Shown here piece by piece: positions 8,437 to 40,400 of a stretch of DNA of 64,000 nt. Positions within the stretch are counted from its first letter, which is position 1, and each line of letters starts with the position of its first letter. The notes below the pieces were generated by a model, which saw nothing but the letters and a program-made list of their open reading frames with translations, was not told the DNA's origin and ran no database searches. A program made the position numbers and the translations under genes. The stretch covers positions 186,051 through 250,050 of the forward strand of contig JBDRIV010000004.1 in assembly GCA_043815505.1 (NCBI GenBank), written 5' to 3'. The DNA is from a bacterium. GTDB lineage: Bacteria; Patescibacteriota; JABMPQ01; JBDRIV01.

Positions 8437-9171
8437 TTATTCTCTTTCCTTAAATGATAATGACCCTACCACAGTTAAAACCACAGCAAAAATTGCCAAA
8501 TAGCCAATATTAGCCCAGGCATCAGAATAATTTAATGTTGGTTCAATAGTTGCTTTTAAAACTGAGATGCCCGGTCGAATTGGAAAGAATTGTCCGACGA
8601 TTTCTGCCCAGCGCGGTAGCAGTGAAGTGTCGGCCATCAAACCTGAAAGAAAAGCTGGTAACACAACGAGCAGTGGAATAAAAGGAATGACATGCGCTTC
8701 CTTTCTGGCAAAAGTGGAAATGAATATTCCTAGCAACACTGAAACAACAGCCAAAACAAATAATCCAATACTCATCATCCAGATTACATCCCAACCATAA
8801 TTAAGTTCAAACAACCATAAAACTTCAATTAATACAAAAGCAGCTTGAATGACAGCTAATCCTAAATATCCTAAAACGTAACCAAGAATGATATCAATTT
8901 TATGCACGCCGCTGATTAACATACGACTGAGAGTTCCTTGAATTCTTTCCTGTACAAGTAAAAGCGCGCTTAAAATGAAAGTTAAAAAGTAAACAATATA
9001 GGCCATGAAAGGAACAACAAAAGCTTCGCGGGAAACAGCTTCTGGTAAGGTGTCAAAAAACAGTTTTAAAAAATAGGCAATAATAAGTGGAATGATAATT
9101 GTAAAAACCGCAAAGCGCTTGTCATGTCTAAGTTGTTGTAAAACTCTTCTGGCTATAATTAAAATATTCAT
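8437..9171 (-). CDS. ABC-2 type transporter permease
   Basis: Six TM helices. There is a 4-nt overlap with the upstream ATPase gene. Confidence 0.8.
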   Translation of the reverse strand: MNILIIARRVLQQLRHDKRFAVFTIIIPLIIAYFLKLFFDTLPEAVSREAFVVPFMAYIVYFLTFILSALLLVQERIQGTLSRMLISGVHKIDIILGYVLGYLGLAVIQAAFVLIEVLWLFELNYGWDVIWMMSIGLFVLAVVSVLLGIFISTFARKEAHVIPFIPLLVVLPAFLSGLMADTSLLPRWAEIVGQFFPIRPGISVLKATIEPTLNYSDAWANIGYLAIFAVVLTVVGSLSFKERE

Positions 9172-10022
9172 TGCTTTTTCTTTTGATTAAGAAGTTCAAT
9201 CATTACGTCTTCTAAATTTTTGGTATCTATGTCTAAACTTTCAATGTCTCGCGACAAACCATATTGATGCAACAAATTGGCCATAGCTTTTCCGGAGGCT
9301 TCAACTTTTTCTGTCCATTCTTCTTTGCTCTTATGAAATATTAATTTAGAAGTTCCTTTAGCAATTAAGTTTTTTGGTGTATCGTGAGCAATTACTTCAC
9401 CTTTTTGTAATAGAATTACACTATCACAAAGCATCGCTTCATCAATTAAATGAGTACTGATTAACAATGTTTTTCCTTCTTCAACAAATTCTCTAAATTT
9501 TTTCCAGAGATTTCTTTTTAGTAGCGGATCTAAAGCTGCTGTTGGTTCATCTAAAAGTAAAAGGTCTGGATCATGAACTAAAGCTGAGGCTAATGAAACA
9601 CGTTTTTTCATTCCTCCAGACAGAGTATAAACTGGGCTTTTAAAACGTTCTTCCAAGTTCAACATTTTTAGAAGTTCCTGAGCTTTCCCACGAGGATTTT
9701 TGACTTTGTGAAGACGAGCAAAAAAAGAAACATTTTCTCGAGCAGAAATATCTTCGTAGAGTGCTGAGTCTTGAGGCATATATCCTAAATTTTTCCGCAT
9801 TTTGTATCTATCTTTTATAGGATCAAAACCAAGCACTTCAATTGACCCGGCAGTTAAATTTAGAGTCCCAATAACCGATTTAATAAATGTAGACTTCCCT
9901 GCTCCATTTGGTCCAACGAGACCGGTAATCTGACTTTGAGGAATTTCCAAACCAACGTTCTTTAAAGCCTGAACGTTTTTATAATGTTTGGATAAATTTC
10001 TTGCAACAATTGCTTGCCTCAC
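9168..10022 (-). CDS. ABC transporter ATP-binding protein
   Basis: Walker A 'GPNGAGKST', signature 'LSGGMKKRVSLA', Walker B 'LLLLDEPTAALD'. Confidence 0.9.
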   Translation of the reverse strand: MRQAIVARNLSKHYKNVQALKNVGLEIPQSQITGLVGPNGAGKSTFIKSVIGTLNLTAGSIEVLGFDPIKDRYKMRKNLGYMPQDSALYEDISARENVSFFARLHKVKNPRGKAQELLKMLNLEERFKSPVYTLSGGMKKRVSLASALVHDPDLLLLDEPTAALDPLLKRNLWKKFREFVEEGKTLLISTHLIDEAMLCDSVILLQKGEVIAHDTPKNLIAKGTSKLIFHKSKEEWTEKVEASGKAMANLLHQYGLSRDIESLDIDTKNLEDVMIELLNQKKKQ

Positions 10023-11949: not shown

Positions 11950-13866
11950 ATGAGACACTTACAAGGCAATTTTGTCCCTAAGAACATTGTTTTTCTAGAA
12001 CCAAAAGCTAGGGATCCTCACACTTTTTCTGGACTTCCCATTCCCCGAGTCGGTTGTGTGGAGCTAGCTACTATGGCCAGGGACTGGCGTGGAAAAAATG
12101 TCCGAGTACTTGTTGAAGAGGTTGCCTCATTTAATCCTGAAGTTGTATTGGGTGATGATGTTGACATGGTATGCATTTCTACTCTCACCAATACTGCTCC
12201 CGAGGCTTACGAGTGGGCCAATCTTTGCGCCCTCGCTGGCAAACCTGTTGTATTAGGTGGAGTACACGCAACTTTCCTTCCCAACGAATCTCTATATCAT
12301 GCCCCTTTAGTAATCCGCGGGGAGGCGGAAGAATCTTTTCTAGATCTCTTGGATTGCCTGGCAGCAGGTGATGACTTATTTAAGGTTAGAGGACTTTCTT
12401 GGAAAGATGGTCTTGGCCATCATTTTCATAATCCTCCAACAGATCCCCTTGAAATGGTTCCCTCGTCAGAGTTTCTTAACACAATTCCTGTTCCTGATTT
12501 CAGTCTGGTAGAAGGCTACCAACTCAAGAAACCAGCAGCAATTCCCATCGCCACCATTCGTGGTTGTCCTCACATGTGCACTTTCTGTTCGGTCACTGCT
12601 TTTAATGGTAGACGTTACCGGCATCCGTCAGTTCTTTGGGTGCTAAATGCACTTGAAAAATACATCAAGGATTTTGGTAACGTACGTTGGTTCTTCTTTG
12701 TAGCTGATAACTTCATTGCTCATCCTAAATGGGCTGAAGAGTTAATGCTAGGGATAATTGAACGTCAGCTCAACATTTCTTGGGGAGCACAATTCACCAT
12801 CCATTTCACCAAGAACGAAAGGTTAATGGAACTGGCAGTTAAGGCTGGTTTGGACAGAGCTTTTCTCGGTTATGAATCACCAATCGATAAATCTTTAGCC
12901 GACTGTCATAAAAGCCAAACTACTGCCCAAATTGAAGAAGCTCAGAAAAAATTGAAGGAATTTGATATTCCTGACCATGGCATGTATATGATCTTTCCGT
13001 CTGATCCATCAGACATCGCTTCTCGCATAGTGGATTTTGCGGAAAGAAACAGTAACGACACTATCCAAATAATTCCTTTGGGTGCTAACCCTGGTTCAGA
13101 ATTATGGACAACGTTACAAACGTCTAGAGAACAACTTCTATCCCAAGACTGGCGACTGTTTAATGGACAGCAACCATTGCTGATTCCGAAAAACATGTCT
13201 CCCTTGAAGCAACATCAAACCACGGCAACTGCTTTGTCTCGATTCTATCGACCGACAAAGATCTGGCAATCATTTTTCGCTTACTTGAAAACTCGGGATA
13301 TAAAACAGCTTAAGACCATGATGATTAGACTAAAAGGGTGGCAACTCACTAAACTAATTAAATGGTCAAAAAGCAATCGTTTGTTTCTCAAATTCTTGAG
13401 GAGTCATCCGGAAACAACTGGCGAAACCTATGAATCCTGGGAATTGAAAAGAAGGCTGGCTCGGCGTATTACCATTCGCTGTCCGCAAAACCTCAGACAA
13501 ACCGTGAGTTCATTCCTGGCAGAATTGGGTTTTTCTAAAGTTCGTGTCAAACCAATTAAACATAAACCAAACCTATCTGGACAAAAAATTGGTGAAATCC
13601 GTATATCCTTGTCCAATTGGTTACGAAAGCAAAAAGCACATTTCGTTGTTTCTGATTTAAGCGAAATCGGCGACGATTGGCGTGAGCGCTTTGCTGACAT
13701 CGTAAACAGGTGGCCCAAATTCAGAAAACAATCCAAACTCATTTGTCTCCCCAGAACGTCTGAAAATAACACAATTAAGAATATGCTCAGACGACTGGGA
13801 GCGTATCTTTCTTCCAATGAAGAAACGATCGAATCAGCTATCAAAAAAATTCCCTTGAAGGATTGA
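11950..13866 (+). CDS. B12-binding-domain radical SAM protein with a ~250-aa C-terminal extension of unknown function
   Basis: N-terminal cobalamin-binding-like region ('DMVCISTLTNT...VVLGGVHATF'). Radical SAM 'GCPHMCTFCSV' CxxxCxxC motif. GC ~45-47% against ~33% flanks. Only sizeable plus-strand gene in the first 30 kb. Confidence 0.8.
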   Translation: MRHLQGNFVPKNIVFLEPKARDPHTFSGLPIPRVGCVELATMARDWRGKNVRVLVEEVASFNPEVVLGDDVDMVCISTLTNTAPEAYEWANLCALAGKPVVLGGVHATFLPNESLYHAPLVIRGEAEESFLDLLDCLAAGDDLFKVRGLSWKDGLGHHFHNPPTDPLEMVPSSEFLNTIPVPDFSLVEGYQLKKPAAIPIATIRGCPHMCTFCSVTAFNGRRYRHPSVLWVLNALEKYIKDFGNVRWFFFVADNFIAHPKWAEELMLGIIERQLNISWGAQFTIHFTKNERLMELAVKAGLDRAFLGYESPIDKSLADCHKSQTTAQIEEAQKKLKEFDIPDHGMYMIFPSDPSDIASRIVDFAERNSNDTIQIIPLGANPGSELWTTLQTSREQLLSQDWRLFNGQQPLLIPKNMSPLKQHQTTATALSRFYRPTKIWQSFFAYLKTRDIKQLKTMMIRLKGWQLTKLIKWSKSNRLFLKFLRSHPETTGETYESWELKRRLARRITIRCPQNLRQTVSSFLAELGFSKVRVKPIKHKPNLSGQKIGEIRISLSNWLRKQKAHFVVSDLSEIGDDWRERFADIVNRWPKFRKQSKLICLPRTSENNTIKNMLRRLGAYLSSNEETIESAIKKIPLKD

Positions 13867-18275: not shown

Positions 18276-20057
18276 TTATTTTTGTGTCAGTTCTTTTTTC
18301 CGCAAACGCACTGACTTAGGAGTGATTTCTAAAAGTTCATCCTCAGCCATCACTTCTAAACCGCGTTCTAAAGTAAGTTTTAAAGGTGGCGTTAAACTAA
18401 GAGCATCATCGGAACCTGCGGCGCGCATATTAGTTAATTGTTTTCCTTTAGTTGGATTTACCGTCATGTCTCTGCCCTTGCTGACGTTGCCAATTACCAT
18501 ACCCACATAAACTTCGGTGGTAGGACCAATGTATAAAATTCCGCGATCCTGCAAATTATAAAGAGAAAATCCCAAAGTTTTCCCATTTTCCATAGAAATC
18601 ATTGATCCAGTTTCACGACTTTTAATTTCGCCCACGTGCGGTCTGAAACCAATTACGCGCGAAGCCATAATCCCCTCACCCCGAGTATCAATTATAAATT
18701 CGGAACGCAGACCAATTAAACCGCGAGTAGGAATTTCAAAAATGAGACGCGAGTTAGCTTGATTATTTTTCATTTCTATTAAAGTTCCTTTGCGTTTGGC
18801 CAATTTTTCAATTATGGCACCTGACATTGATTCTGGCACATCAATTATTAATTCCTCAAACGGTTCCAAAGTTTGGCCATTCCCCTCTTTTAAAATTACT
18901 TGGGGTTGAGAAACTTGTAATTCAAATCCTTCCCGACGCATATTTTCAAGTAAAATTGCTATATGCATTTCCCCTCGTCCATGAACAATGTATTGGTCTT
19001 TGGCAGAAAAATCTATTTTTAATCCGACATTAACTTCCAATTCCTTTTCCAATCTTTCCTTCAATTGTGAATTGGTAACAAATTTTCCTTCGCGACCAGA
19101 AAAAGGAGAATTGTTAATCATAAATCCTAAAGAAATAGTTGGTTCATCAACTGCAATGTGGGGAAGAAGTTCAGACTGCTCATCTATTGTCATGGTATCG
19201 CCAATATAAATATCAGGAAATCCAGCCACCACCACAATGTCTCCGGCCGATGCTTCGGCAACTTCTTTTCGAGAGAAACCATCAAAAGTAAAAAGTTTAG
19301 TAACATTCCCTTTTTGCAAAGTGCCGTCAACTCGTTTAATAAATAGCTGATCTTTTTCTTTCACCGTTCCTTCATAAATTCTGGCAATGGCTAAACGTCC
19401 TAAATAATCGTCGTAATCTAAATTAAAAGATTGTAGACGTGCGGGTTTGGTTGTTTCTTGTTTGGCTGGAGCAACATTTTTTAGAATTGCATCTAATAGT
19501 GGTGTCATATCACCTAAATCATCAGTTAATTCTTTTTTAGCTTTTCCTTCTCGGCCAATGGTATAAACTGTGGCAAAATCAAGTTGCTCATCGTTAGCCC
19601 CTAAATCCATAAATAATTCTAATACTTCTTCTACAACTTCTTCTGGTCTGGCCGCTTCTTTATCTATTTTATTTATTACAACTAAAGGTTTCAACCCAAT
19701 TTCTAAAGACTTCTTTAGAACGAATTTTGTTTGTGGCATTGGACCTTCTCCCGCATCAACAACCAAAATAACAGAATCGATGGAACGCAAAACGCGCTCT
19801 ACCTCCGAACCAAAATCGGCATGACCAGGCGTGTCCACAATATTAATTTTAGTAGTAGCTTGCCCTGAGCTTGCCGAAGGGTAAAACATGGAAGCATTTT
19901 TGGCATAAATAGTAATACCACGCTCTTTTTCAAGCACGTTGGAATCCATACTCACAGACTCATTGGTAATAGCACCGGTTTGACGCATCAATGAATCGGT
20001 AATGGCGGTTTTCCCATGATCAACATGAGCAATAATGGCAATATTTCTAATTTCCAT
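18276..20057 (-). CDS. typA: translational GTPase TypA/BipA
   Basis: 'IRNIAIIAHVDHGKT' (G1), 'DTPGHADFG' (G3), 'NKIDK' (G4), with a BipA-like C-terminal region. The track start at 20165 is an unsupported N-terminal extension. Confidence 0.9.
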   Translation of the reverse strand: MEIRNIAIIAHVDHGKTAITDSLMRQTGAITNESVSMDSNVLEKERGITIYAKNASMFYPSASSGQATTKINIVDTPGHADFGSEVERVLRSIDSVILVVDAGEGPMPQTKFVLKKSLEIGLKPLVVINKIDKEAARPEEVVEEVLELFMDLGANDEQLDFATVYTIGREGKAKKELTDDLGDMTPLLDAILKNVAPAKQETTKPARLQSFNLDYDDYLGRLAIARIYEGTVKEKDQLFIKRVDGTLQKGNVTKLFTFDGFSRKEVAEASAGDIVVVAGFPDIYIGDTMTIDEQSELLPHIAVDEPTISLGFMINNSPFSGREGKFVTNSQLKERLEKELEVNVGLKIDFSAKDQYIVHGRGEMHIAILLENMRREGFELQVSQPQVILKEGNGQTLEPFEELIIDVPESMSGAIIEKLAKRKGTLIEMKNNQANSRLIFEIPTRGLIGLRSEFIIDTRGEGIMASRVIGFRPHVGEIKSRETGSMISMENGKTLGFSLYNLQDRGILYIGPTTEVYVGMVIGNVSKGRDMTVNPTKGKQLTNMRAAGSDDALSLTPPLKLTLERGLEVMAEDELLEITPKSVRLRKKELTQK

Positions 20058-20061
20058 AATT

Positions 20062-21357
20062 TTATTTGCGACGACGATAATTATTACGACGTCCTTTATA
20101 ATTTCGTTTATTTCCAGAATTATTTCTGTTACCTTGTTTATTGGAACGATTTCTGCCGCGACCATGACGACGATTTCCTTGAAACTGATTCTGATTTTGT
20201 TCCTGAGCTGGTCTTTGTCTAGCAGGAGGAAGTTGTGGTAATGACAAAACGGGTAAAGATTTTCTAATCAGTCGTTCAATTTTTTTAACATCTTTTTTCT
20301 GAGATGAAGTAATAAAAGTAATAGCCTTTCCCGATAATCCAGCGCGACCAGTTCTGCCTATGCGATGAACGTAATCTTCTGAACAATCTGGTAAATCAAA
20401 ATTAATTACTAAATCAATATTTCTGACATCAATTCCGCGCGCAGCAATGTCAGTGGCAATTAAAATTCGAAAAGTTCCCTTTTTAAATCCTTCCATCGCC
20501 GCTTTGCGTTGTCCTTGAGAACGATTGGAATGAATCTCTGTTACCGTATGACTCATGTTGAGAATATCGCGTGTAATTTTTTTAGCTCCATGTTTAGTGC
20601 GAGAAAATATTAAAACCTTGTCGTTTTTATTTTTTTCTAATACAGAATCCAACAAACGCATTTTGTTATCTTTTTCTACCACAAAAACTTTTTGAGAAAC
20701 ATTTTCGGCCGCAGTTCCCTGCGGAGCAATTTCTATTCTTAAGGGTAGTTTCATAAAAGCACTGGCCAACATGGAAATGGTTTTGGGCATAGTAGCAGAA
20801 AACAACATGGTTTGTCGCTTCTTTGGTGCAGCTTGTAAAATTCTTTTAATCTCTGGCAAAAATCCTACATCCAGCATTCGATCCGCTTCGTCCAAAATAA
20901 TAATACTAATTTGATTTAATTTATAAATTCCTTGTTTCATTAAATCAGCTAATCTTCCTGGTGTAGCCACCACAACGTGAGGATTTCTCCGCAAAGCTTT
21001 TACCTGCACTGCTTGAGATGCTCCTCCAATTACTACAGCTGTGCGTAGTCCAAGTGGTACACCAACTTGTCTAAGCGCTTCCTCTACTTGAAGTGCCAGC
21101 TCGCGAGTTGGAACTAAAACTAAACCTTGTCCTTTTGCTTTGGCAATGTGTTGAATCATAGGTATGCCAAAAGCTAAGGTCTTTCCCGTTCCGGTTTGGG
21201 CAATACCTACCACATCTTTTCCTTCCAAAGCGCCAGGAATAACCTGACATTGAATTGGCGTCGGGATAGAAAATTTATTTTTAGCAAGAATTGGCAGAAA
21301 TTTCTCAGCAATTCCTAGATCGCTAAAATGAATTATTGGTTGTTCTTTTCTGGGCAT
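20062..21357 (-). CDS. DEAD-box ATP-dependent RNA helicase with an Arg/Asn/Gly-rich C-terminal tail
   Basis: Q-motif, 'AQTGTGKT', 'PTRELA', 'DEAD', 'SAT', 'HRIGRTGR'. Confidence 0.9.
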   Translation of the reverse strand: MPRKEQPIIHFSDLGIAEKFLPILAKNKFSIPTPIQCQVIPGALEGKDVVGIAQTGTGKTLAFGIPMIQHIAKAKGQGLVLVPTRELALQVEEALRQVGVPLGLRTAVVIGGASQAVQVKALRRNPHVVVATPGRLADLMKQGIYKLNQISIIILDEADRMLDVGFLPEIKRILQAAPKKRQTMLFSATMPKTISMLASAFMKLPLRIEIAPQGTAAENVSQKVFVVEKDNKMRLLDSVLEKNKNDKVLIFSRTKHGAKKITRDILNMSHTVTEIHSNRSQGQRKAAMEGFKKGTFRILIATDIAARGIDVRNIDLVINFDLPDCSEDYVHRIGRTGRAGLSGKAITFITSSQKKDVKKIERLIRKSLPVLSLPQLPPARQRPAQEQNQNQFQGNRRHGRGRNRSNKQGNRNNSGNKRNYKGRRNNYRRRK

Positions 21358-21561: not shown

Positions 21562-22314
21562 TTAAAGAGAGTTTGAGGATAAGGGTTCGAGAGGAATGGT
21601 TGTGCCTGCAGGAGCATATTCAATTTTTGTACCAGCTGGCCAAATTAATTGAATATCTTCGTTGTAAGAAAAATCCAAATAAATTTCTGCACCAGCAACT
21701 GTAAGGTTGGTCATATTTGACACACCTTCAAAATTAGCAGTATGTTCTCCAGAAATTGATTGCACATATTGAACAGAACCATCATTAGTAGCTGTTGTAG
21801 CTATAGCACTGTCTGGACAAGACCAGGTTCCAGGAGTACCGCTAACAGTTTCGTGAATCGTGCCTTTGGGATAAAAAGGTCCAGCATCTGGTAATTGATC
21901 TGCCGTTATTCCCAAATCCGAAAAATCAATTTCGATATAACCGTCAATATAAACAACCTGTTCTGTTAAATTTTGACAAACACTAGAATACATTGATAAA
22001 TCCGTACGCTGTACCTGACTGAAACTTATTTTCCAAGGTGTCAAATAAGCATTGTATTTAATACTTTCTGAATCCGCCAAAGAATGACCGACGATGTATT
22101 GATGATATGTCATTCCACCCAATGGTGCGGCTGATGAATCAGTATAAAATATGGTGTAATCGGTGCGATCAGTAACTTCTTTTGAACTGCCACTTTTATC
22201 AGTTATATTATTTGAAGTTGTTTTGTTGCCTCCCTGACAACTGAATCCTGTTAAAACAGTTACAGCCATTATAAGCAAAGTTACTGTAATAATTTTTGTT
22301 TTCATAGGTTTCAA
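21562..22314 (-). CDS. hypothetical lipoprotein
   Basis: Signal peptide with lipobox 'LTGFSC'. Confidence 0.5.
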   Translation of the reverse strand: MKPMKTKIITVTLLIMAVTVLTGFSCQGGNKTTSNNITDKSGSSKEVTDRTDYTIFYTDSSAAPLGGMTYHQYIVGHSLADSESIKYNAYLTPWKISFSQVQRTDLSMYSSVCQNLTEQVVYIDGYIEIDFSDLGITADQLPDAGPFYPKGTIHETVSGTPGTWSCPDSAIATTATNDGSVQYVQSISGEHTANFEGVSNMTNLTVAGAEIYLDFSYNEDIQLIWPAGTKIEYAPAGTTIPLEPLSSNSL

Positions 22315-22374: not shown

Positions 22375-22626
22375 TTATTTAACTCCCATAAATTGAAGCA
22401 ATTCATAAACCATAAACGCTGGCCAGACACAAGCTTTTAAAAATCCTAGAACGCCAATCCAAAATGAACCGGCAATGCTTATATAATATACCGCTGCACC
22501 AATAACACCAACACAATACACTCCGCCACCGCCAGTTTTTACCACATTCTTTTTCTTCCATTTTTTATCACCACACCAATCTTTTTCAAATTTATTTTTG
22601 AACCAATTTTCAATATTTTTTTCCAT
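22375..22626 (-). CDS. small membrane protein
   Basis: 83 aa with a Gly-rich stretch and two hydrophobic helices. Confidence 0.4.
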   Translation of the reverse strand: MEKNIENWFKNKFEKDWCGDKKWKKKNVVKTGGGGVYCVGVIGAAVYYISIAGSFWIGVLGFLKACVWPAFMVYELLQFMGVK

Positions 22627-22696: not shown

Positions 22697-23494
22697 TTAA
22701 ACCGGTCTTAAAGTTCCGGCCCAAACCTGCCAAGCCAGCAAAGATTTAGCCACCAAACTTAAAATAATGTACATCCATTCACCATAGGTATAACTTCTCC
22801 ATTTGCCAACCTTTTTGTATTGCAGAATCATATTGATGGCAAAAATGTTAAAGAAGATAAACAGGGTGAAGAAAATCCAATAGACAAAAGTTGGCACTTC
22901 ACCATTTTCTCCCCCACTACCAATTAGATAAATTGCGATGGCCACCCATGGCACAAAACCGGCAATGCAACCAAAAATATAAGAAGTCCAATTGGTTTTT
23001 TCCGTCGATTGATTGTGTAGTTCCATTATCCAACCAAAGAGAATCATCATAGCATTCAAAAAGAAAATGAGAAGCAGACTTACACCATCGTAAATTCCCA
23101 CCAACATAGAAATGGCTACAATCATTAACGAAGAACTAAATGAATACTCAATCCAACGAGCGTAGTTGGCACCTTTTTTAAGATTCTTCACATACCATTT
23201 ATAAATTCTTGGCAATGAAACCATTAGATGAGCCAAAGCTGACATAAATAGAAAAGTAGCAATTATCGGACCGAGGGGAAGTTCCCAAGCAGTTTCTAAA
23301 GATGGCGCCAGTTTTTGTGTGGCGGTATCAAATTGAATAAATGAAGTTGTAATTGGTAACTTAAAATCACTACTCAAAACAACCATTAGCACACCTTGAA
23401 TTAGGTGTAAAAACATCATAAAGATGTTGAATTTGCGCAGATTAATAAACTTCTTTTCGTCCGTTTTTTCTTCTGGTTGTATATTTTCCTCCAT
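22697..23494 (-). CDS. heliorhodopsin (7-TM retinal protein, inverted topology)
   Basis: 'ARWIEYSFSSSLMIV', 'MILFGWIMELHNQ', 'FGCIAGFVPWVAIAIYLIG' and the lysine-bearing 'ILSLVAKSLLAWQVWAGTL' closely parallel heliorhodopsin 48C12 ('FRWVEYSLSSSVMIV', 'SMILFGWLQEKYTQ', 'FGCIAGIVPWIGLLIYVIA', 'SLVAKSALAWQIFSGTL'). Confidence 0.85.
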   Translation of the reverse strand: MEENIQPEEKTDEKKFINLRKFNIFMMFLHLIQGVLMVVLSSDFKLPITTSFIQFDTATQKLAPSLETAWELPLGPIIATFLFMSALAHLMVSLPRIYKWYVKNLKKGANYARWIEYSFSSSLMIVAISMLVGIYDGVSLLLIFFLNAMMILFGWIMELHNQSTEKTNWTSYIFGCIAGFVPWVAIAIYLIGSGGENGEVPTFVYWIFFTLFIFFNIFAINMILQYKKVGKWRSYTYGEWMYIILSLVAKSLLAWQVWAGTLRPV

Positions 23495-23578: not shown

Positions 23579-24775
23579 TTATCTTGTCACCATTTTCTTG
23601 AAAATTGGGACCGAGACTATCAAGGTTGTAACCCCAAATATTATCAAAATTATAAATTCAGTAGAAATATCTGAAATTCCACCACCAAGTATCATCACTT
23701 TTCGCAAAGCTTCAATGGCATATGTTAGAGGTAAAACGTGAGCAATTTTTTGCATGAATTCTGGCATTTGTTGGATAGGAAAGAAAGCGCCCGACAAAAA
23801 CAACATCGGAAACTGAAACATAAATAAAACTTGCGTGGCGGTTTCTTGTTCGGTTGCCGAAGCTGAAACTAAAACTCCTAAACCAACAAATGAAAACACG
23901 CCTAACAATAAAATTAGCAGAACTAAAAATAAATTACCATTGATGGTTACACCAAAAAGAAATACTGCCAGTAATAAAACGATGGCCCCCTGAATTAAAC
24001 CTCTGATTGATTGAGCAGCAGCTTTGCCTAGAATAATTGATAAACGACCAATGGGAGAGATTAAAATTCCGTCCAATGTCCCCTGCTCTTTTTCGCGCGA
24101 AACCGAACCAGCCAGACCTGTTAAAACTGCTGTCATGACAACCATGGCCATAATGCCCGGCGCCACAAATTCAAAATAATTTGTTTCTCCAGTAAATAAA
24201 CCAGCCAGACTGATTTTGATCGGTGTGACAATTGCTTGCACTAAATTTTGATCGGGCGGCGTTCCAGCCGAAACAGTCGAAGTTAGAATAGAACTTACTT
24301 TTTGTTGTTCTAAACCTTTGCTAAAACCGGTAACCATCTGACTTAAAGTTTGGGTAGTAATAGCCATGATTTGTGGATTGGATTGATCCTCCACGATGGT
24401 AACTTCTGTTTGTTCGTTGGCAGCAATCGCAGTAGCAAAATTTTCTGGAATAACAATACCACCAGAAACTTCTTGTTTTCTAATTCCTTCTTTTATAGCT
24501 TCCAAACTATCATAAGTTTCTACATTGAAAGCTTTTTTACCCTCAACTATTTCCAAATTAGCCACCGTGTCGATTAGTGCCTGACCCATTTGATCATCGT
24601 TGTTAACCACGCCGATTTCTATTCCTGTTAAAGTCGATTGACTAGGAAAAATAAAGCCAGTTAGAATCATCATAAAAATTGGCATGATAACAAACGTTAC
24701 CAAACGCATACGATCGCGAGAAAATTCCAGCAAATCTTTTTTAGTTATTTTCCAAATGTCATGTAAACTTTTCAT
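23579..24775 (-). CDS. ABC-2 family permease with a large N-terminal extracytoplasmic domain
   Basis: N-terminal TM, ~170-aa soluble domain, then five C-terminal TM helices. Confidence 0.75.
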   Translation of the reverse strand: MKSLHDIWKITKKDLLEFSRDRMRLVTFVIMPIFMMILTGFIFPSQSTLTGIEIGVVNNDDQMGQALIDTVANLEIVEGKKAFNVETYDSLEAIKEGIRKQEVSGGIVIPENFATAIAANEQTEVTIVEDQSNPQIMAITTQTLSQMVTGFSKGLEQQKVSSILTSTVSAGTPPDQNLVQAIVTPIKISLAGLFTGETNYFEFVAPGIMAMVVMTAVLTGLAGSVSREKEQGTLDGILISPIGRLSIILGKAAAQSIRGLIQGAIVLLLAVFLFGVTINGNLFLVLLILLLGVFSFVGLGVLVSASATEQETATQVLFMFQFPMLFLSGAFFPIQQMPEFMQKIAHVLPLTYAIEALRKVMILGGGISDISTEFIILIIFGVTTLIVSVPIFKKMVTR

Positions 24776-24792
24776 TGTTTTGTTTAATAATT

Positions 24793-25611
24793 TTACCTAA
24801 CTCGGTTTTGACCTCCACCACGCATGGGACCATGGCCACCGCCACTTGAAGGCGCGGCTTTTATCATTTCATTACGCACGTCAAAGCCAGTTAATTGTAA
24901 AAAGACATCTTCCAAAGTTGGATTATCTTTGTCTGGCACTTGTTTTTTCAACTCGTCAGTAGTTCCCACTGCCACAATTTTACCTTGATCAATTACTGCC
25001 AAGCGATCGCACAACGCTTCAGCTTCAATCATATTATGGGTTGTTAGAATTACCGTTGTGCCGTGTGCTCTCAATTCTTCAATAAATTTTCTGATTAAAT
25101 AGGTTGTTTGCGGATCAAGTCCCAATGTTGGTTCATCTAAAAATATAATTTCTGGTTCGGTTAGAAGCGCGCGCACAATATTAATTCTTTGTTTCATACC
25201 AGTAGAATATCCTCGCACTTTAGAATCCATCCAGTTTGTCATGCCTAGTCGGTCAACCCATTTTTCTGATCTTTTGTTAATTTCATCTTTGGATAAATTA
25301 TTTAAGCCACCAAAAAACTCCAGATTTTCTCTGGCGGTTAGAAGATTATAAAGAATTATTTTTTCTGCCACCAAACCAATTTTAGTACGGATTTCATCTT
25401 GATCTTTTTTTATATCATAACCAGCAATTTGGGCCGAGCCTTTTGTTGGTGTTAGCAAAGTTGTTAAAATTCTGATGGTGGTTGATTTACCGGCGCCGTT
25501 CGGTCCCAGAAATCCAAAAATTTCTCCCTTTTCCACATTAAAGGAAATGGAATCTACGGCAGTAAATTTCTTAAATTTTTTAGTTAAATTTTTTACTTCA
25601 ATTATACTCAT
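24793..25611 (-). CDS. ABC transporter ATP-binding protein with a Gly-rich C-terminal tail
   Basis: 'GPNGAGKST', 'YSTGMKQRINIVRAL', 'IIFLDEPTLGLD'. Confidence 0.9.
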   Translation of the reverse strand: MSIIEVKNLTKKFKKFTAVDSISFNVEKGEIFGFLGPNGAGKSTTIRILTTLLTPTKGSAQIAGYDIKKDQDEIRTKIGLVAEKIILYNLLTARENLEFFGGLNNLSKDEINKRSEKWVDRLGMTNWMDSKVRGYSTGMKQRINIVRALLTEPEIIFLDEPTLGLDPQTTYLIRKFIEELRAHGTTVILTTHNMIEAEALCDRLAVIDQGKIVAVGTTDELKKQVPDKDNPTLEDVFLQLTGFDVRNEMIKAAPSSGGGHGPMRGGGQNRVR

Positions 25612-25865
25612 TTCTTTTTGTTCTTGACTTTTTTCATTACTTTTTGTACAGCTTTCAATTTAGTTAATAAACTGGTTTCTATTTCTTGTAAATTGGCCAA
25701 TTTAAACATGGAAAGCATGCCATTATCCAAACCAAAAACTAAAAGTTTCTCTCCTTTTTTAAGCTTCATTTTTTCTCTTGCTTCGGAAGGAATTACCACT
25801 TGACCCTTTTCTCCTAGCGTCGTTGAACCATGAAACATGATATTGTAACATTTTTTACTGGTCAT
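25608..25865 (-). CDS. AbrB/MazE (SpoVT-AbrB) family DNA-binding protein
   Basis: 'TTLGEKGQVVIPSEAREKMKLKKGEKLLV' matches the swapped-hairpin motif. 4-nt overlap with the ABC ATPase gene. Confidence 0.6.
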   Translation of the reverse strand: MTSKKCYNIMFHGSTTLGEKGQVVIPSEAREKMKLKKGEKLLVFGLDNGMLSMFKLANLQEIETSLLTKLKAVQKVMKKVKNKKK

Positions 25866-34466: not shown

Positions 34467-37400
34467 TTAAAATTCACTAGTTGTTATATTCAATCCCTCT
34501 CTCAAATTTTTATTATACACAAAGAAGCTCATTAAAACATTTGTCTCGGCATCAAAAGTCTTTACATGTGGACCTCCTCCCTGATCAGGAGCTGTTACTA
34601 TTTCTGCATTACCATCATTATTCATGTCGCCAACCGCTACATTAACTCCGCACGAATAATTTGAATCATAAGCAAAGAACGAAGATAATAATTTTGCATT
34701 TAACGGATTGAACACTTTAACATTAGGACCGTTTCCAGAGGAAACACCGGTTACAACCTCTACTGTTCCATCTCCTGTGAGATCTCCGGCTGCCACAGTA
34801 ACTCCGGTAAAATAATTTGTGCTATCATATGCTTTCCATTCTGATACTAATTCGGCTTGGTGATTAAATATTTTGACAGTAGCTGGAAAATAACCACCAC
34901 CACCAGAACCAACAATAATTTCTTCCCTGCCATTATTTGATGTATCACCAGTAGTTATGTATCCAGCTGCTCTTCCTGTATCTGGATAGGCAAAAAAACT
35001 ACTAAGCAGCTTTCCGGTTTGATCCCAAATTTTTACGTGAGCAGGAGCAGCTTTAGCAGGAATTGTAATTATTTCCTTTTGGCCATTACCATTTGTGTCT
35101 CCAACAGCCACTTTTATTCCAAAACGGGCATTGGAGCTATATGCCATGAATTGACTAAGAAGAACCCCATTTTGATCAAATATTCTAACTTGAGGTCCTC
35201 CTCCTCCACCTGGACCTGTTACTATTTCTGTTTTGCCATCCATGTTTAAATCTCCTGCCGCTACATTTACCCCGAATCGATAATTTGAATCGTAGGCAAA
35301 AAAAGTGGTTAATGGATCACCATCTTGATTATCAAAAACACTAACTTGGGGGCCATCACCCTGTCCGGCACCAACAACAATATTATGTGAACGTTTTAAA
35401 TTGGTCATGGAAACTGACGCCGATTTCGTATTATTTGCAAGATTACTATCTTCGCCATCACTAGAAACACTTACTGTGATAATAAAATCATTGGCTAATG
35501 AATTTGCATTTACAATAATTGTGATTTCATTCGCTTCTGCGCCGCTATCTATTATTGATGTCTCACAGGTTACTTCACCGTTCAATTCTTCACAGCTCCA
35601 GCCTGTTCCTGATGCTGAAATAAACGTGGAGTTTGGAGGTAGAATTATGGAAGCAACAACGTTTTCCGCTTCATCAGGACCATTATTGCTAATACTTATT
35701 CCGTAAGTAATGTTGTTTGTTGTCGGGTCCGCGCTAGTATTAATTTCCACTTTTAAATCAGTATTTTTATACGCTACCAAAACACTTTTTGAGGTAGTAT
35801 TATTTGTAATATCATCATCAGTGGTATTTGAACTTATAGTGGCTTGAGTAGTAATTGTCCCCTCTGTTTGAGGAGCTTTTATTTTTATAGAAATATTGTC
35901 ATTAGATGATGATTGCTTATTGAATATATTAATATTTTTTTCTTGCCTCCATATATCTACACTTGAACTGGCAGACAGAGATATTCTTGTACAAGTAACT
36001 TTCAAATTTGACTCATAACAACTCCAGCCGGTGCCAGAAGCAGAAACATATGTTGAACCTGATGGTAAGGTGGTTGTAGAAATTAAATTTTCGGCTTCAT
36101 TGGGACCATTATTGGTAATACTAACTGTATAAATAATTGAATCTCCCGGCTCGACGGATGAAGCGCTAGCATTGATTGATGTAGAAAGATCAGCTGATAA
36201 ACTATCATCATCTAATATAGTGTATGTATAATTTGTATTGGTGGTGGAATCACCACTCGCATCTCCAACTACAACATAGCTCGATGGATTCTGAAGGCCA
36301 AATATTATTGTTTCATTATTTTCTACTTTAGTATCGTTTTTAATAGTCAGAGGAATTGTCACCTTGGTTAGGGTTGTATAATCTGCGTTTGGTATAGTAA
36401 TTGTTTTGGGACTTGAAAATGTATAATCTGTTCCCGTTGTTGCCGTACCTCCCGTAACAGCTACTTTTATTGTTAATGTGCCACTATAACCAGTGGCATC
36501 TCCACCACTGACACTTAATTTAAATACTGGACTGGTTACCGTCTCTGACTTACTGTTTGTTGCCTTGGTAAATTCTACTGTTAAACCATCGTCCTCGGTA
36601 ATAGTAGCAGTTGCCGTTGATCGATTCGTTGTATCTTCATCGGCATCACCACTAATAGCACCGGCAGAGAAATTGTTCAGAGAAAGATTGATTGTTTCAT
36701 TCCCTTCCAAAAGATTATCGTCGGTTACAGTAATTGAAAAAGCTACAGATTGAACAGTTGTGTAATCTCCTATCGGGATTGTAACAGATATTGGACCAGC
36801 GACATAATCTGTTCCTGCTGTAGCAGTGTTATCAGCTAATACCACGTTCACACTTTCACTAGCTGCTATTATTCCTCCGCGCACACTAAGATTACCACTA
36901 ATAGAACCACTCGCCTCTGCTTCTGAGTAGGCTATATTATTGAACTCTACTAAAAGATAACTATGATCAGTAAAGTCTACTACGAAATCAGTCTTTGAAT
37001 AATTCGTAACATTGGCGGCCGAAGTTGTGTTGGTAAAGGCTCCATCTAGCCAGACTATTTCCAAATTAGATATATCGTCAGCATCAGTATGACTAGTAGC
37101 ATTACCAGTGAGGGAAACTTCTATGGTTGTTGCTCCTGTTCTATTTACCGAAGCACTTAGCCCTGCTGGTACATTGTTAACTTGAACATGAACACCAAGA
37201 GTTATTGGATCTACAAAGGTATCACCTGTTAAGGTAGCTGTGGTTGGATCATTGCCTATAGAGCCATCATTCGCTGCGTCCTCTGTAAAAGTAGTAACAT
37301 CATAAGCAATGCTTGGTTGATCAGCAAAGTCTACACCCAGAGAACTGGAAGCTGGTCCAGTAGCATTATCTACATTGGCTGCTGTAGTGGTATTGGTGAA

Positions 37401-40400
37401 AGCGCCATCTTGGAAAGCAAAAGTAATGTCAGCTACATCATCGGCATCTAAGTGATTGGTAGCATTACCAGTCAGAGTTAGAGTGGCTACTGTATCTCCT
37501 GCTGACAGGGTAATAACAGCGGTGAGTCCAGTTGGCACATCAGCTAATACCAGTTCTGTGGTTTCATCAAGAATATCATCAGTGTCTGTATCTTGATAAG
37601 TGTCACCTGTTAGAGTAGCAATAATTGATCCGGTGACGGAGCCATCATTGGCTGTGGCTTCAGTAAACCCTGCTCCTGTATAAGCAATGCTTGGTTGATC
37701 AGCAAAGTCTATTTGACCTGTATTGTCAGTATAACCAACAACATCACTGGCCGTTGCATTGTTTGTAAACACACCATCGACGAAGGTAACTGTAAGGTCA
37801 GCTACATCATTTGCATCCAAATGATTGGTGGCATTACCGGTGAGAGTAAGAGTTGCCACAGTAGAACTGGTTTTGGTTAACACTGCCGTTAAACCGGTTG
37901 GAACATTGGCTACAGTATAGTGGGTGGTTTCAGTAAAAGGATTACCATTGGCAATTCCAGCTATGTAGGTATCATTTGTTAGAGTGGCCGTTCTTGATCC
38001 CGTAACTGATCCATCATTCGCTGTGGCTTCGGTAAAATTTCCTGACCAGGCGATACTTGCCCCCCCTTCAGTAACAATAGAAAAATAATCACCGTCGGTA
38101 ACTGCGACGGTGTTCTTAGAATAAATGTTATCTGCTGCAATGGCATCGCCATTGCTCGCATCATCATAAAGTTGATACTCTATAGCACCACTAGAAAAAT
38201 CGCCATCAGCATCAACGAGAAGATAATAATTTGTTTGTGCAGCGGGAAGATCAAAGTCTGCGTCCTCTGCATCAATAGTAAATGTCACCGTACCAACATC
38301 GCCCGTTTCTTGAATTTTCCATACCCGGTCTAGAATTTCCCGACCTGTGGGGGCACCAGTTGTACTAAAGGTGGCAGCGCCATTATCATTTCCCCAAATA
38401 AGAGATTCTAGACTACCCTGATCTGTAGCTGAACCAATAGAAACAATTCCGTCTGCGTTTTCTGATTTTGAGGTAACTTGATTCAGTTCAGAATCAGTGT
38501 CTTCCTCTACACCCGCCACATCATTATGATAAGTCTGATTAACAGAGGCATCCCAAACTACGGTGTCATCACTTAAGACATAATCTCCTTCGTGAATACC
38601 ATCGGCGTTGGGAGCTTCAAAAGTGGTAGAGTCACCGTTATTGTCATTGGAGAGAGTAAGACCATATTTTAGCGCTAAATAGGATTCAATTTTTTGTAGG
38701 TCAGCTAAAGATACAGCATCGTCATAAACAATAGCTTCGGCGATTTTTCCGTCGAGGAAATTGGCGGAACGGTAAGCTCCGATTTGTAAATTACTAGTAG
38801 TACCTAAAAAACCCCCTGAATCAAGACCAGCATTTGCTTCCTCTTTCCCGTTAATATTAATAATCGTATCCACTAAACCGTTCCCATGCAACCCTGTCCC
38901 AATATAAGGCGTACTATCAAGTTGATCATTGGTGGTTTCTATGTCAAAGCTAGTACCATTACGTAAATTCATTCTTGCTGACCCGAGCCCAAAATTCATT
39001 GAATGGTTGCCGTTTGCTGGAGTTGATCCAGCAGAAATAAGGTTACCACTATAACTAGTATTATCACGAATAAAAACAACTACCTTAGTATAAGCATTAC
39101 CGTTGGGAATTATCCCTGCAGTTACCGTTTCCATATAATCGCTATTAGCGCCATTAAATTCTATTACGGGGTTAAAATTTATTAGATCAGTGGTTCCACT
39201 TTCATAAGTTGGTTCATTCCCACCAGGTGCTGAAACATCATTGCCGTAACCTGATTGATCTGACCAGCTGGTCAGATTGGCTCCGTCGATGACGGTGGAG
39301 GTTCCTGTATTTGCTTTAAGCCACCATTTTATGTTAGTTAAGACACCTCCAGGTGTACCGCTAATAAAATCAATAACAGCATCATCTTTCTCGTATCTTC
39401 CCACATCAATCGCTGACGCAGTTGTAGTAAAGGCGCCGTCTTGCCAAGTTATAGTTAGATCACTAACATCATCTAAATTATTATGATAAGTAGCATTACC
39501 AGTGAAAGTTAGGGTAGCAGTATCCCCAGGACCACTAACATTCATGACAGCAGTTAATCCAGCTGGTTTATTGGTCAAAATAAAGTGAACTCCTTCAGTT
39601 AGAGTACTGCCACCGTTAACAAAAGTGTCATCAGTGATAGTAGCTACAACTGATCCGGTAACTGACCCATCATTATTTGCACTTTCAGTGAAAGATCCGG
39701 AGTAAGCAATAAAGGGATCCATGGCTTCATCTATAAACGGATCGGCTGGTAAGTTATAAGTGCTGGAATCAGTTGGCACAGTTTCTCCGGCAGCGTCGTT
39801 GCTATCACCCAAACTAACTGTTACTGTTCCGGTGGCAGCCGCAGATAAAGTTATAGTAATTTCATCAGTAGCGGTACGATCAATACTATCGATGGCAACT
39901 GGGGTACCATTATTTTTAACTTCAAATCCTCCTAATCCAGATGTTGGCAAAAGAGGTAAATTGTCATCAGAGAAAGACATGGTAACCAAAGTATTAGTGT
40001 CATCAATAAAAGCATTGAGTAGTATGGGGCCACGACCATCAGAACCACCATAAAAATGTTCTTCTAGTGCTGCCCACCAACGATCAGCTGCAGTTTGTCC
40101 TTCAGCATCAGTAGTAAGATGAACACCATCAGCTAATGGCCCAAGATCATAGATTTGAGGTCCATAAAGAATACCAGCATTGTCATCCCAAGCTTCTATG
40201 GTAGCAGCACGGATACCACTAACATAATTGGGAGCTGTCCCTACTTGCCCGATTACTGCTGCCACCATAGGAGGAGCGCCGGGAAGATCAGCCGCCATGT
40301 CAGAAGCAACTTGATCAAACGCGGTATTATAATCATTTTGACTAACATTATTATTAGCATCTCGTTCTCCTTGATGCCACAAAACAGCTTTGACTGCATT

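What the first reader, a model, noticed from the sequence alone, without database searches (positions are those of the whole stretch)
22697..23494. Heliorhodopsin in a CPR-like, reduced genome
The protein matches heliorhodopsin 48C12 closely, including the Schiff-base lysine in 'SLVAKS' (see the feature evidence). Heliorhodopsins have long photocycles and unknown function, and the organism would probably have to acquire retinal externally.

The neighbours are a small Gly-rich membrane protein (22375..22626) and a lipoprotein, not obvious partners.
Basis: partly seen in the sequence, partly recalled or inferred. Interest (0 to 1): 0.6.

Follow-up and report, generated by a model that had tools for sequence, protein, structure and literature searches.

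The report
Ordinary heliorhodopsin in a CPR bacterium
The gene is a genuine, textbook heliorhodopsin (a retinal-binding light sensor with inverted membrane orientation) in a Patescibacteria/CPR genome, but this exact protein is already labelled as such in NCBI and heliorhodopsins in CPR bacteria are already published, so it is ordinary.

Summary
Confirmed, but not new. The ORF at 22697..23494 (minus strand, 265 aa) is a full-length heliorhodopsin. It matches Pfam PF18761 (E = 2e-101) and the NCBIfam equivalog NF038020 (352 bits, cut-off 100). It is 56.5 % identical to TaHeR and 46.8 % to 48C12, so TaHeR is the closer relative, not 48C12.

The Schiff-base Lys (K250, in SLVAK), the counterion Glu (E116), H30, H89, S85 and S246 are all present. 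Of 43 structurally important 48C12 residues, 37 are identical. Loop charges put the N-terminus in the cytoplasm. The predicted fold matches HeR structures (E ~1e-17) and type-1 rhodopsins only weakly (E ≥ 2e-3).

The host is CPR: the closest TypA and HeR relatives are all from Patescibacteria. An identical protein is already in NCBI as "heliorhodopsin HeR", and HeRs in CPR are published.

The 83-aa Gly-rich neighbour is not linked to HeR: none was found in 80 HeR loci. That adjacency recurs in only 1–3 of 80 loci and is not enriched.

No retinal or carotenoid genes lie in the window. The likely role is a slow-cycling light sensor that uses scavenged retinal; its partner is unknown.

The parts
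22697..23494 (-). Heliorhodopsin (HeR) coding sequence, 265 aa, seven predicted TM helices plus a long AB beta-hairpin
   Evidence: ORF. Pfam PF18761 E = 2.1e-101. NCBIfam NF038020, 352 bits. PDB TaHeR 6is6 E = 2e-80. AlphaFold2 model with pLDDT 75.7; Foldseek places HeR structures at E 1e-17 to 1e-14.
22745..22747 (-). Codon of K250, the predicted retinal Schiff-base lysine in the S246-L-V-A-K250 (SxxxK) motif of TM7
   Evidence: Aligns with K241 of 48C12 and the SLVAKS Lys of TaHeR. Invariant in 24 CPR HeRs. Codon read directly.
23147..23149 (-). Codon of E116, the predicted Schiff-base counterion in TM3 (RWIEYS)
   Evidence: Aligns with E107 of 48C12 and the TaHeR Glu that is replaced in 7clj, the E108D entry. 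Role of Glu107 as counterion from PMC7049168. Invariant.
23579..24775 (-). Context only: ABC-2 family permease (398 aa), 84 bp upstream of HeR on the same strand. Speculative HeR partner.
   Evidence: Pfam ABC2_membrane_3 E = 2e-55. DrrB-like, below the NCBIfam cut-off. No strong terminator in the 84-bp gap. Adjacency not conserved.
24793..25611 (-). Context only: ABC transporter ATPase (272 aa), DrrA-like
   Evidence: Pfam ABC_tran E = 1.4e-33. TIGR01188 drrA 301 bits, just under its cut-off of 312.
25608..25865 (-). Context only: AbrB/MazE/SpoVT-type DNA-binding protein (85 aa). Its stop overlaps the ATPase start by 4 nt.
   Evidence: Pfam MazE_antitoxin E = 1e-6. TIGR01439 AbrB-family domain, 38 bits against a cut-off of 28.3.
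22375..22626 (-). Neighbour, not part of the HeR system: 83-aa Gly-rich small membrane protein of a widespread uncharacterised ~60-aa family
   Evidence: 178 homologues, including in Bacteroidota, Clostridiales and Woesearchaeota. No member found in 80 HeR loci by phmmer, tblastn or a family HMM. Contexts of its homologues lack HeR.
21562..22314 (-). Neighbour, not part of the HeR system: 250-aa secreted or lipoprotein-like protein with no known family
   Evidence: No Pfam or NCBIfam hit. No homologue next to HeR in 80 loci. Conserved only in a 99.8 %-identical fragment of the same species, L081.

Best explanation
The gene encodes a canonical heliorhodopsin. It is a seven-helix membrane protein inserted with its N-terminus in the cytoplasm. 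It should bind all-trans retinal as a protonated Schiff base on K250, stabilised by the counterion E116 and by S246, S85 and S120, with H30 and H89 lining the Schiff-base cavity.

By analogy with characterised prokaryotic HeRs (48C12, TaHeR), light should isomerise the retinal and start a slow, seconds-long photocycle without net ion pumping. The protein would then act as a light sensor or regulator that passes a conformational signal to another protein.

The host is a Patescibacteria (CPR) bacterium. It most likely cannot make retinal and loads the opsin with retinal scavenged from neighbouring or host cells.

Shown here: family membership, the catalytic residues, the charge topology, the fold and the CPR origin. 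Inferred: retinal binding, the slow non-pumping photocycle, the sensory role and the external retinal source. The partner protein is not identifiable from this locus.
For: Family: Pfam PF18761 E = 2e-101 over the full length; NCBIfam HeR equivalog 352 bits against a cut-off of 100; PDB hits are heliorhodopsins only, with TaHeR at E = 2e-80.

Residues: K250, E116, H30, H89, S85, S120 and S246 are conserved, and 37 of 43 residues singled out in the 48C12 structure paper are identical (roles from PMC7049168). The same residues are invariant in 24 CPR HeRs.

Topology: about 13 K/R lie on the N-terminal tail plus loops 2-3, 4-5 and 6-7, against about 3 on the other face.

Fold: the model has seven helices plus an AB beta-hairpin. 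Foldseek gives HeR structures E 1e-17 to 1e-14 with TM ~0.8, and type-1 rhodopsins E >= 2e-3 with TM 0.5-0.6.

CPR origin: TypA best hits at 78-83 % identity are all Patescibacteria or Parcubacteria. The closest HeRs are Patescibacteria MAGs, and the window's HeR nests in a CPR clade.

Retinal: no blh or crt family among the ~50 window ORFs scanned. Absence of blh in rhodopsin-bearing Saccharibacteria and fast uptake of external retinal by TaHeR are reported in PMC9296517.

Sensory role: HeRs are described as non-pumping with a long-lived photoactivated state (PMC11109279) and as sensory switches restricted to monoderms (PMC8612252).
Against: No experiment on this protein exists, so retinal binding, absorption and photocycle are all inferred. 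No signalling partner is evident. No histidine kinase or response regulator lies within +/-10 kb, and no neighbour is conserved across 80 HeR loci. Only 64 kb of a >= 255 kb contig could be inspected, so absence of retinal synthesis in the genome is not shown. Some HeRs do transport protons (viral V2HeR3), and a 2025 preprint argues for a light-harvesting role with a carotenoid antenna. The 'sensor' assignment for the family therefore remains debated.
Confidence: 0.85

Rival explanations
1. The HeR is co-transcribed with the upstream AbrB-like, ABC ATPase and ABC-2 permease genes and modulates that DrrAB-type exporter in the light by direct membrane protein-protein contact. This would parallel the published actinobacterial OcHeR and its OmrDE multidrug ABC exporter.
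For: Same strand, with the transporter upstream of helR as in the published ABC group (PMC11109279). The gap is 84 bp, with no convincing terminator and no strong promoter match. L014 (Doudnabacteria) also has an ABC ATPase plus ABC-2 permease directly upstream of HeR. L036 has an ATPase directly upstream.
Against: The adjacency occurs in only 1-3 of 80 HeR loci. ABC ATPases within 1.5 kb of HeR number 4, against about 2.4 expected from the flank-wide density, which is not significant. The closest HeR relative with context (L001, 72 % identity) has no ABC neighbour. The window itself holds three ABC-2 pairs in 64 kb, so chance adjacency is likely. The L014 permease is 259 aa against 398 aa here and only weakly similar (E = 2e-20), so it is not an orthologous arrangement. 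OmrDE is described as a heterodimeric multidrug ABC exporter. Here the ATPase (DrrA-like) and the ABC-2 permease are separate genes, which from general knowledge belongs to a different ABC class.
Confidence: 0.1
2. The HeR is an energy- or ion-handling protein rather than a sensor. It would be either a light-gated proton transporter like viral V2HeR3, or a two-chromophore light harvester that recruits exogenous xanthophylls through its outward-facing fenestration.
For: The literature reports proton transport by a viral HeR (cited in PMC11109279). A 2025 preprint proposes a conserved carotenoid-binding site in HeRs, suited to monoderms that take up exogenous pigments. A CPR episymbiont living on pigment-producing hosts would fit that picture.
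Against: This protein belongs to the prokaryotic clade of 48C12 and TaHeR. Bacterial HeRs are described as lacking ion-pumping activity (PMC11109279). 37 of 43 residues of non-pumping 48C12 are identical. Neither carotenoid-site residues nor transport could be tested here.
Confidence: 0.08
3. The gene is a relic: an apo-opsin that never receives retinal in this organism and has no light-dependent function.
For: No retinal or carotenoid genes in the window. CPR genomes are metabolically reduced (PMC9166423).
Against: The ORF is intact. All chromophore-contacting residues are conserved and invariant across 24 CPR homologues at 64-74 % identity, which indicates purifying selection on the retinal pocket. 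There are hundreds of CPR homologues. Uptake of external retinal by HeR is documented (PMC9296517).
Confidence: 0.04
4. The protein is a type-1 rhodopsin, or the contig is a non-CPR contaminant. Either way the 'HeR in CPR' reading would be wrong.
For: None found, apart from the uninformative NCBI label '[bacterium]' and some near relatives carrying 'uncultured Gammaproteobacteria' labels.
Against: Bac_rhodopsin (type-1) is not among the Pfam families listed at E <= 0.01. Foldseek hits to type-1 structures are about 14 orders of magnitude weaker than hits to HeRs. TypA on the same contig is 78-83 % identical to Patescibacteria proteins only. The 'Gammaproteobacteria' HeRs are interspersed among CPR HeRs in the tree, so those labels are probably wrong.
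Confidence: 0.01

Closest known systems
TaHeR, heliorhodopsin of Thermoplasmatales archaeon SG8-52-1 (PDB 6is6, 7u55, 7clj)
   Same: 56.5 % identical over 248 aligned residues. Same SLVAKS Lys motif, RW(I/F)EYS counterion motif and both His residues. Met at the position near the beta-ionone ring (48C12 Q213 becomes M in both). Best sequence match (E = 2e-80) and best structural match (Foldseek E = 3.6e-17, TM 0.79-0.83).
   Different: TaHeR is archaeal; this host is a CPR bacterium. At the two residues that Kovalev et al. link to fenestration width, the window protein has F180 (as in TaHeR) and F212 (as in 48C12; TaHeR has Ala). The opening may therefore be narrower than in TaHeR. This is inferred from the alignment only.
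Heliorhodopsin 48C12 (PDB 6su3, 6uh3), the founding member
   Same: 46.8 % identical. 37 of 43 structurally highlighted residues are identical, including K241/K250, E107/E116, H23/H30, H80/H89, S237/S246, S76/S85, N101/N110, R104/R113, E149/E158, E230/E239 and W246/W255.
   Different: Differences: R91 to W100, R231 to W240, Q213 to M222, L227 to T236, S201 to T210, I170 to F180. 48C12 is the most distant sequence in the distance tree.
Published CPR/Patescibacteria heliorhodopsins (cluster 'C17' of Bulzu et al. 2021; the HeRs of Chiriac et al. 2022)
   Same: Same clade. The nearest relatives (64-74 % identity) are Patescibacteria MAG proteins already annotated 'heliorhodopsin HeR'. The TM7 motif SLVAK is the commonest motif reported for CPR HeRs.
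   Different: Nothing of kind. It is a further species-level member, and the identical sequence is already in NCBI.
OcHeR-OmrDE (HeR-modulated multidrug ABC exporter of Ornithinimicrobium cerasi, Cho et al. 2024)
   Same: ABC transporter genes lie directly upstream of helR on the same strand.
   Different: OmrDE is described as a heterodimeric multidrug ABC exporter. Here a separate DrrA-like ATPase and an ABC-2 permease are found. The adjacency is not conserved among relatives and is statistically unremarkable. No interaction has been tested.

Membership tests
Heliorhodopsin (Pfam PF18761 / NCBIfam NF038020) | Full-length match to the family profile above the curated threshold | tested here: met
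   PF18761 338.7 bits (cut-off 26.7), covering profile positions 1-242 of 242. NF038020 equivalog 352.4 bits (cut-off 100).
Heliorhodopsin (Pfam PF18761 / NCBIfam NF038020) | Retinal-binding Lys in TM7 within an SxxxK motif (Ser in place of the type-1 Asp) | tested here: met
   S246-L-V-A-K250 aligns with S237/K241 of 48C12. Motif definition from PMC9166423 and PMC8612252.
Heliorhodopsin (Pfam PF18761 / NCBIfam NF038020) | Single Glu counterion in TM3 (48C12 E107 / TaHeR E108), plus the conserved His pair of the Schiff-base cavity | tested here: met
   E116, H30 and H89 align with E107, H23 and H80. Roles from PMC7049168.
Heliorhodopsin (Pfam PF18761 / NCBIfam NF038020) | Inverted membrane topology (N-terminus cytoplasmic, C-terminus outside) | tested here: met
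   Positive-inside rule: about 13 K/R on the N-tail and loops 2-3, 4-5 and 6-7, against about 3 on the opposite side. This is a prediction from sequence, not an experimental topology.
Heliorhodopsin (Pfam PF18761 / NCBIfam NF038020) | Seven-TM rhodopsin fold with a long AB-loop beta-hairpin, closer to HeR structures than to type-1 structures | tested here: met
   The AlphaFold2 model (pLDDT 75.7) has seven helices plus strands at 45-56 and 61-73. Foldseek: HeRs E 1e-17 to 1e-14 with TM ~0.8; best type-1 E = 1.9e-3 with TM ~0.56.
Heliorhodopsin (Pfam PF18761 / NCBIfam NF038020) | Binds all-trans retinal, with a slow photocycle and no ion pumping | not testable with these tools
   Requires expression, spectroscopy and transport assays.
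Heliorhodopsin (Pfam PF18761 / NCBIfam NF038020) | Host is a monoderm lineage (reported distribution of HeRs) | tested here: met
   The host is assigned to Patescibacteria by TypA and HeR relatives. [quoted passage not shown]
Type-1 microbial rhodopsin (Pfam PF01036 Bac_rhodopsin) | Match to the Bac_rhodopsin profile; DxxxK motif in TM7; N-terminus outside | tested here: not met
   PF01036 is not among the Pfam families listed at E <= 0.01. TM7 has SxxxK rather than DxxxK. The charge distribution indicates N-in. Structural similarity to type-1 is only at the level of the generic fold.
HeR-ABC transporter regulatory pair (OcHeR-OmrDE type) | ABC transporter genes upstream of helR in one operon, recurring among related HeRs | tested here: inconclusive
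   The upstream, same-strand arrangement is present, and no terminator was found in the 84-bp gap. It recurs in only 1-3 of 80 loci without enrichment.
HeR-ABC transporter regulatory pair (OcHeR-OmrDE type) | Partner is a heterodimeric multidrug ABC exporter that physically binds the HeR | tested here: not met
   The transporter here has a separate DrrA-like ATPase and an ABC-2 permease, not the heterodimeric exporter type described in PMC11109279. Physical binding is not testable here.

The most novel reading that the evidence does not exclude
The HeR is transcribed together with the AbrB-like regulator and the DrrAB-type ABC-2 exporter, and gates that exporter by light. This would extend HeR-ABC coupling, known from one actinobacterial multidrug exporter, to a different ABC class and to the CPR. 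One possible link is the export or exchange of lipophilic compounds at the episymbiont-host interface.
Probability: 0.08. Interest if true: 0.5.

Novelty: already known. Interest (0 to 1): 0.12.

Why it matters
It matters little beyond correct annotation. The locus adds one more species-level example to a documented pattern: metabolically reduced, monoderm CPR bacteria keep an intact heliorhodopsin while probably lacking retinal synthesis. That pattern bears on two open questions, what HeRs do and how episymbionts obtain chromophores. This locus gives no new handle on either, because no conserved partner gene accompanies it. The one mildly useful lead is the upstream ABC-2 transporter, which could be tested as a second HeR-ABC pair.

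Tried and rejected
1. Co-occurrence of the 83-aa Gly-rich protein with HeR. phmmer (E < 1e-5), tblastn (E <= 10) and a 121-sequence family HMM (E <= 1) against 80 HeR loci found nothing. Contexts of its homologues P0130 and P0131 contain no HeR. Rejected as a partner.

2. The lipoprotein-like neighbour. No family, and no homologue near HeR in the other loci. Rejected.

3. Unbiased clustering of +/-3 neighbours in 80 loci. The largest cluster covers 6 loci from one Chloroflexota sub-lineage. Photolyase appears in 4 loci and an ABC ATPase in 3. There is no general partner.

4. Enrichment of ABC ATPases near HeR. Four lie within 1.5 kb, against about 2.4 expected. Not significant.

5. Histidine kinase or response regulator genes near HeR, as reported by Bulzu et al. 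None among the ORFs scanned within +/-10 kb.

6. Retinal or carotenoid genes. None in the window. The flavoprotein at 49438..50553 matches CrtI, CrtD and geranylgeranyl-reductase models only through its N-terminal Rossmann motif, far below their cut-offs.

7. Terminator or promoter signals to decide operon structure. Counts were near shuffle expectation and nothing was decisive.

8. Exact-sequence look-up of the HeR's contig. Not on record, so the rest of the genome could not be inspected.

9. tRNA and Rfam scans for a taxonomic marker. Nothing in the window. TypA was used instead.

Full report
**Observation.** It is an ATG-started, 265-codon reading frame at 22697..23494 on the minus strand. 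It matches the Pfam heliorhodopsin family PF18761 from end to end (E = 2.1e-101). Bac_rhodopsin (type-1) is not among the Pfam families listed for it at E <= 0.01. It also scores 352 bits against the NCBIfam equivalog NF038020 'heliorhodopsin HeR', whose cut-off is 100. Against all PDB chains, the only hits are heliorhodopsins: TaHeR (6is6, E = 2e-80), then 48C12 (6su3, E = 3e-62).

**Residues, topology and fold.** A three-way alignment gives 56.5 % identity to TaHeR and 46.8 % to 48C12.
- The Schiff-base lysine is K250, in S246-L-V-A-K250 (codon 22745..22747).
- The counterion is E116 (codon 23147..23149). It aligns with E107 of 48C12 and with the position changed in the TaHeR E108D entry 7clj.
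- Of 43 residues that Kovalev et al. (PMC7049168) single out in the 48C12 structure, 37 are identical. They cover the Schiff-base ligands, the His23/His80 cavity, the Arg104-Glu149-Tyr226-Glu230 polar cluster, the Gln26/Ser242/Trp246 surface cluster and Pro40 of the AB loop. The same positions are invariant in 24 CPR homologues.
- The loop charges follow the positive-inside rule for an N-in, C-out protein: about 13 K/R on one face against about 3 on the other.
- An AlphaFold2 model (pLDDT 75.7) shows seven helices and the long AB beta-hairpin.
- Foldseek places the model with HeR structures at E 1e-17 to 1e-14 (TM ~0.8). Type-1 rhodopsins reach only E >= 2e-3 (TM 0.5-0.6, 8-17 % identity).

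**Organism.** The window has no tRNA or Rfam hit, so proteins were used instead.
- TypA (window 18276..20165) has an identical copy on an NCBI contig of 255,102 bp labelled 'MAG: ... [bacterium]'. The identical HeR copy lies on a contig of the same length.
- Nearly all source-named TypA hits, including every one at 78-83 % identity, are Patescibacteria, Parcubacteria or a named CPR candidate phylum.
- The closest HeRs (64-74 % identity) are Patescibacteria MAG proteins.
- In a distance tree of 80 genome-derived HeRs plus TaHeR and 48C12, all CPR sequences form one clade that contains the window protein. TaHeR groups with archaeal HeRs, and 48C12 is the most distant.
- Low GC (0.36), many ORFs without a known family and a 3013-aa surface protein fit a CPR genome.

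'CPR-like' is supported.

**Is it new?** No. The identical protein is already deposited and named 'heliorhodopsin HeR'. Chiriac et al. 2022 (PMC9166423) screened CPR genomes and found 115 rhodopsins, all but 17 inferred to be HeRs, with SLVAK among the commonest TM7 motifs. Bulzu et al. 2021 describe a Patescibacteria-dominated HeR cluster and the restriction of HeRs to monoderms.

**The 83-aa and lipoprotein-like neighbours.** It does not. phmmer, tblastn at E <= 10 and a family HMM built from 121 homologues all fail to find it in any of 80 HeR loci with up to 8 kb of flank. The protein belongs to a widespread, uncharacterised family with a ~60-aa core. The family also occurs in Bacteroidota, Clostridiales and Woesearchaeota, and its members sit in contexts without HeR. 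The lipoprotein-like gene has no family and no recurrence. The only other place with the same arrangement is a 99.8 %-identical fragment of the same species (L081).

**The upstream ABC transporter.**
- an AbrB/MazE-type DNA-binding protein, whose stop overlaps the next start by 4 nt;
- a DrrA-like ABC ATPase;
- an ABC-2 permease, 17 bp further on, which ends 84 bp before the HeR start.

The 84-bp gap has no convincing terminator and no strong promoter match, so co-transcription is possible. This is relevant because Cho et al. 2024 (PMC11109279) showed that an actinobacterial HeR binds and light-activates the multidrug ABC exporter encoded upstream of it.

The evidence here is weak, however:
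- An ABC ATPase plus permease directly upstream of HeR recurs only in L014 (Doudnabacteria). Its permease is shorter (259 aa against 398 aa) and only distantly similar.
- A lone ATPase is adjacent in L036, and another lies close by in L051.
- ABC ATPases within 1.5 kb of HeR number 4, against about 2.4 expected from the flank-wide density.
- The closest relative with context (L001) has none.
- The window itself carries three ABC-2 pairs in 64 kb.
- The transporter class differs from OmrDE.

An unbiased clustering of +/-3 neighbours finds no family in more than 6 of 80 loci. No histidine kinase or response regulator lies within +/-10 kb.

**Retinal supply.** None of the ~50 window ORFs scanned matches Blh or carotenoid-pathway families. 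The flavoprotein at 49438..50553 matches CrtI, CrtD and geranylgeranyl-reductase models only through its Rossmann motif, far below their cut-offs. Jaffe et al. 2022 (PMC9296517) found no blh in rhodopsin-bearing Saccharibacteria. They also note that TaHeR rapidly binds external retinal through an opening in the apoprotein. At the two residues Kovalev et al. link to fenestration width, the window protein has two bulky side chains (F180, F212). This hints at a narrower opening than in TaHeR, from the alignment only.

**Mechanism.** Best-supported (confidence 0.85 for identity and chromophore chemistry, roughly 0.6 for the sensory role): an N-in seven-helix opsin binds scavenged all-trans retinal on K250 with E116 as counterion. 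It undergoes a slow, non-pumping photocycle and relays a conformational signal to an unidentified partner. Rivals:
- light modulation of the upstream ABC-2 exporter (~0.1);
- ion transport or carotenoid-assisted light harvesting (~0.08);
- a functionless apo-opsin (~0.04), which the invariant retinal pocket argues against;
- a misassigned family or contaminant contig (~0.01).

**Verdict.** The feature is already known, both as this very sequence and as a kind. Interest is low (0.12).

Noticed in passing
window 3162-4858, 8437-10022, 23579-25611 (all minus strand): Three separate ABC ATPase plus ABC-2 permease pairs lie within 64 kb. This is a high density of DrrAB-like exporters for a small genome, and it raises the chance that one sits next to HeR by accident.
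   Followed up: partly
window 34467-43508 (minus): A giant 3013-aa protein with SASA (sialate O-acetylesterase-like), Calx-beta, DUF11 and FG-GAP domains. Its GC is 0.41-0.42, against ~0.35 for the window. It is probably a surface or adhesion protein of the kind common in CPR episymbionts.
   Followed up: no
window 11950-13866 (plus): A B12-binding radical SAM enzyme, HpnJ/BchE-like but far below those models' cut-offs. It is the only large gene on the plus strand and sits in a GC-rich patch (0.426), so it may be horizontally acquired.
   Followed up: no
whole window: Almost every sizeable ORF is on the minus strand, and GC skew is negative across nearly all 64 kb. This suggests a single replichore with strong gene-strand bias.
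   Followed up: no
window 18276-21357; loci L013, L034, L050, L019, L004: TypA lies 0.6-4 kb downstream of HeR on the same strand in three CPR loci (L034, L050, L013), and 2.5 kb downstream in the window. A DEAD-box helicase sits directly upstream of HeR in L019, and between HeR and TypA in the window. This looks like residual HeR-TypA microsynteny within the CPR, with the 83-aa and lipoprotein genes as local insertions.
   Followed up: partly
loci L001, L002, L004, L011: Four of the closest HeR relatives come from third-party (TPA) MAGs labelled 'uncultured Gammaproteobacteria bacterium'. Their HeRs are interspersed among CPR HeRs in the tree. The labels are therefore probably wrong, rather than evidence of HeR in diderms.
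   Followed up: partly
window 22375-22626 and proteins P0121-P0240: The 83-aa protein belongs to an unnamed, widespread family. The conserved ~60-aa core has the consensus ...GAVYGLGVIGAAVYYISTATSFWIGVLGFLKALVWPAFLVYELLKFLG. The family has no Pfam or NCBIfam model and occurs in CPR, Bacteroidota, Clostridiales and DPANN archaea. The window copy has an extra Lys/Trp-rich N-terminal tail.
   Followed up: partly
loci L023, L028, L045, L075: A photolyase-like gene lies 1-3 genes downstream of HeR in four actinobacterial or Chloroflexota loci. This fits the published HeR-photolyase group. No such gene lies near the window's HeR.
   Followed up: no
window 56239-59805 (minus): A 1188-aa superfamily-1 helicase (AAA_11/AAA_12) is fused to a C-terminal REase_MTES_1575/DUF559 endonuclease domain. 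It may be a defence or repair nuclease-helicase.
   Followed up: no
window 18276-20165 (minus): The mechanical 629-aa TypA ORF is over-extended at its 5' end and overlaps the DEAD-box helicase ORF. The identical NCBI protein is 593 aa, so the real start is about 36 codons downstream.
   Followed up: yes
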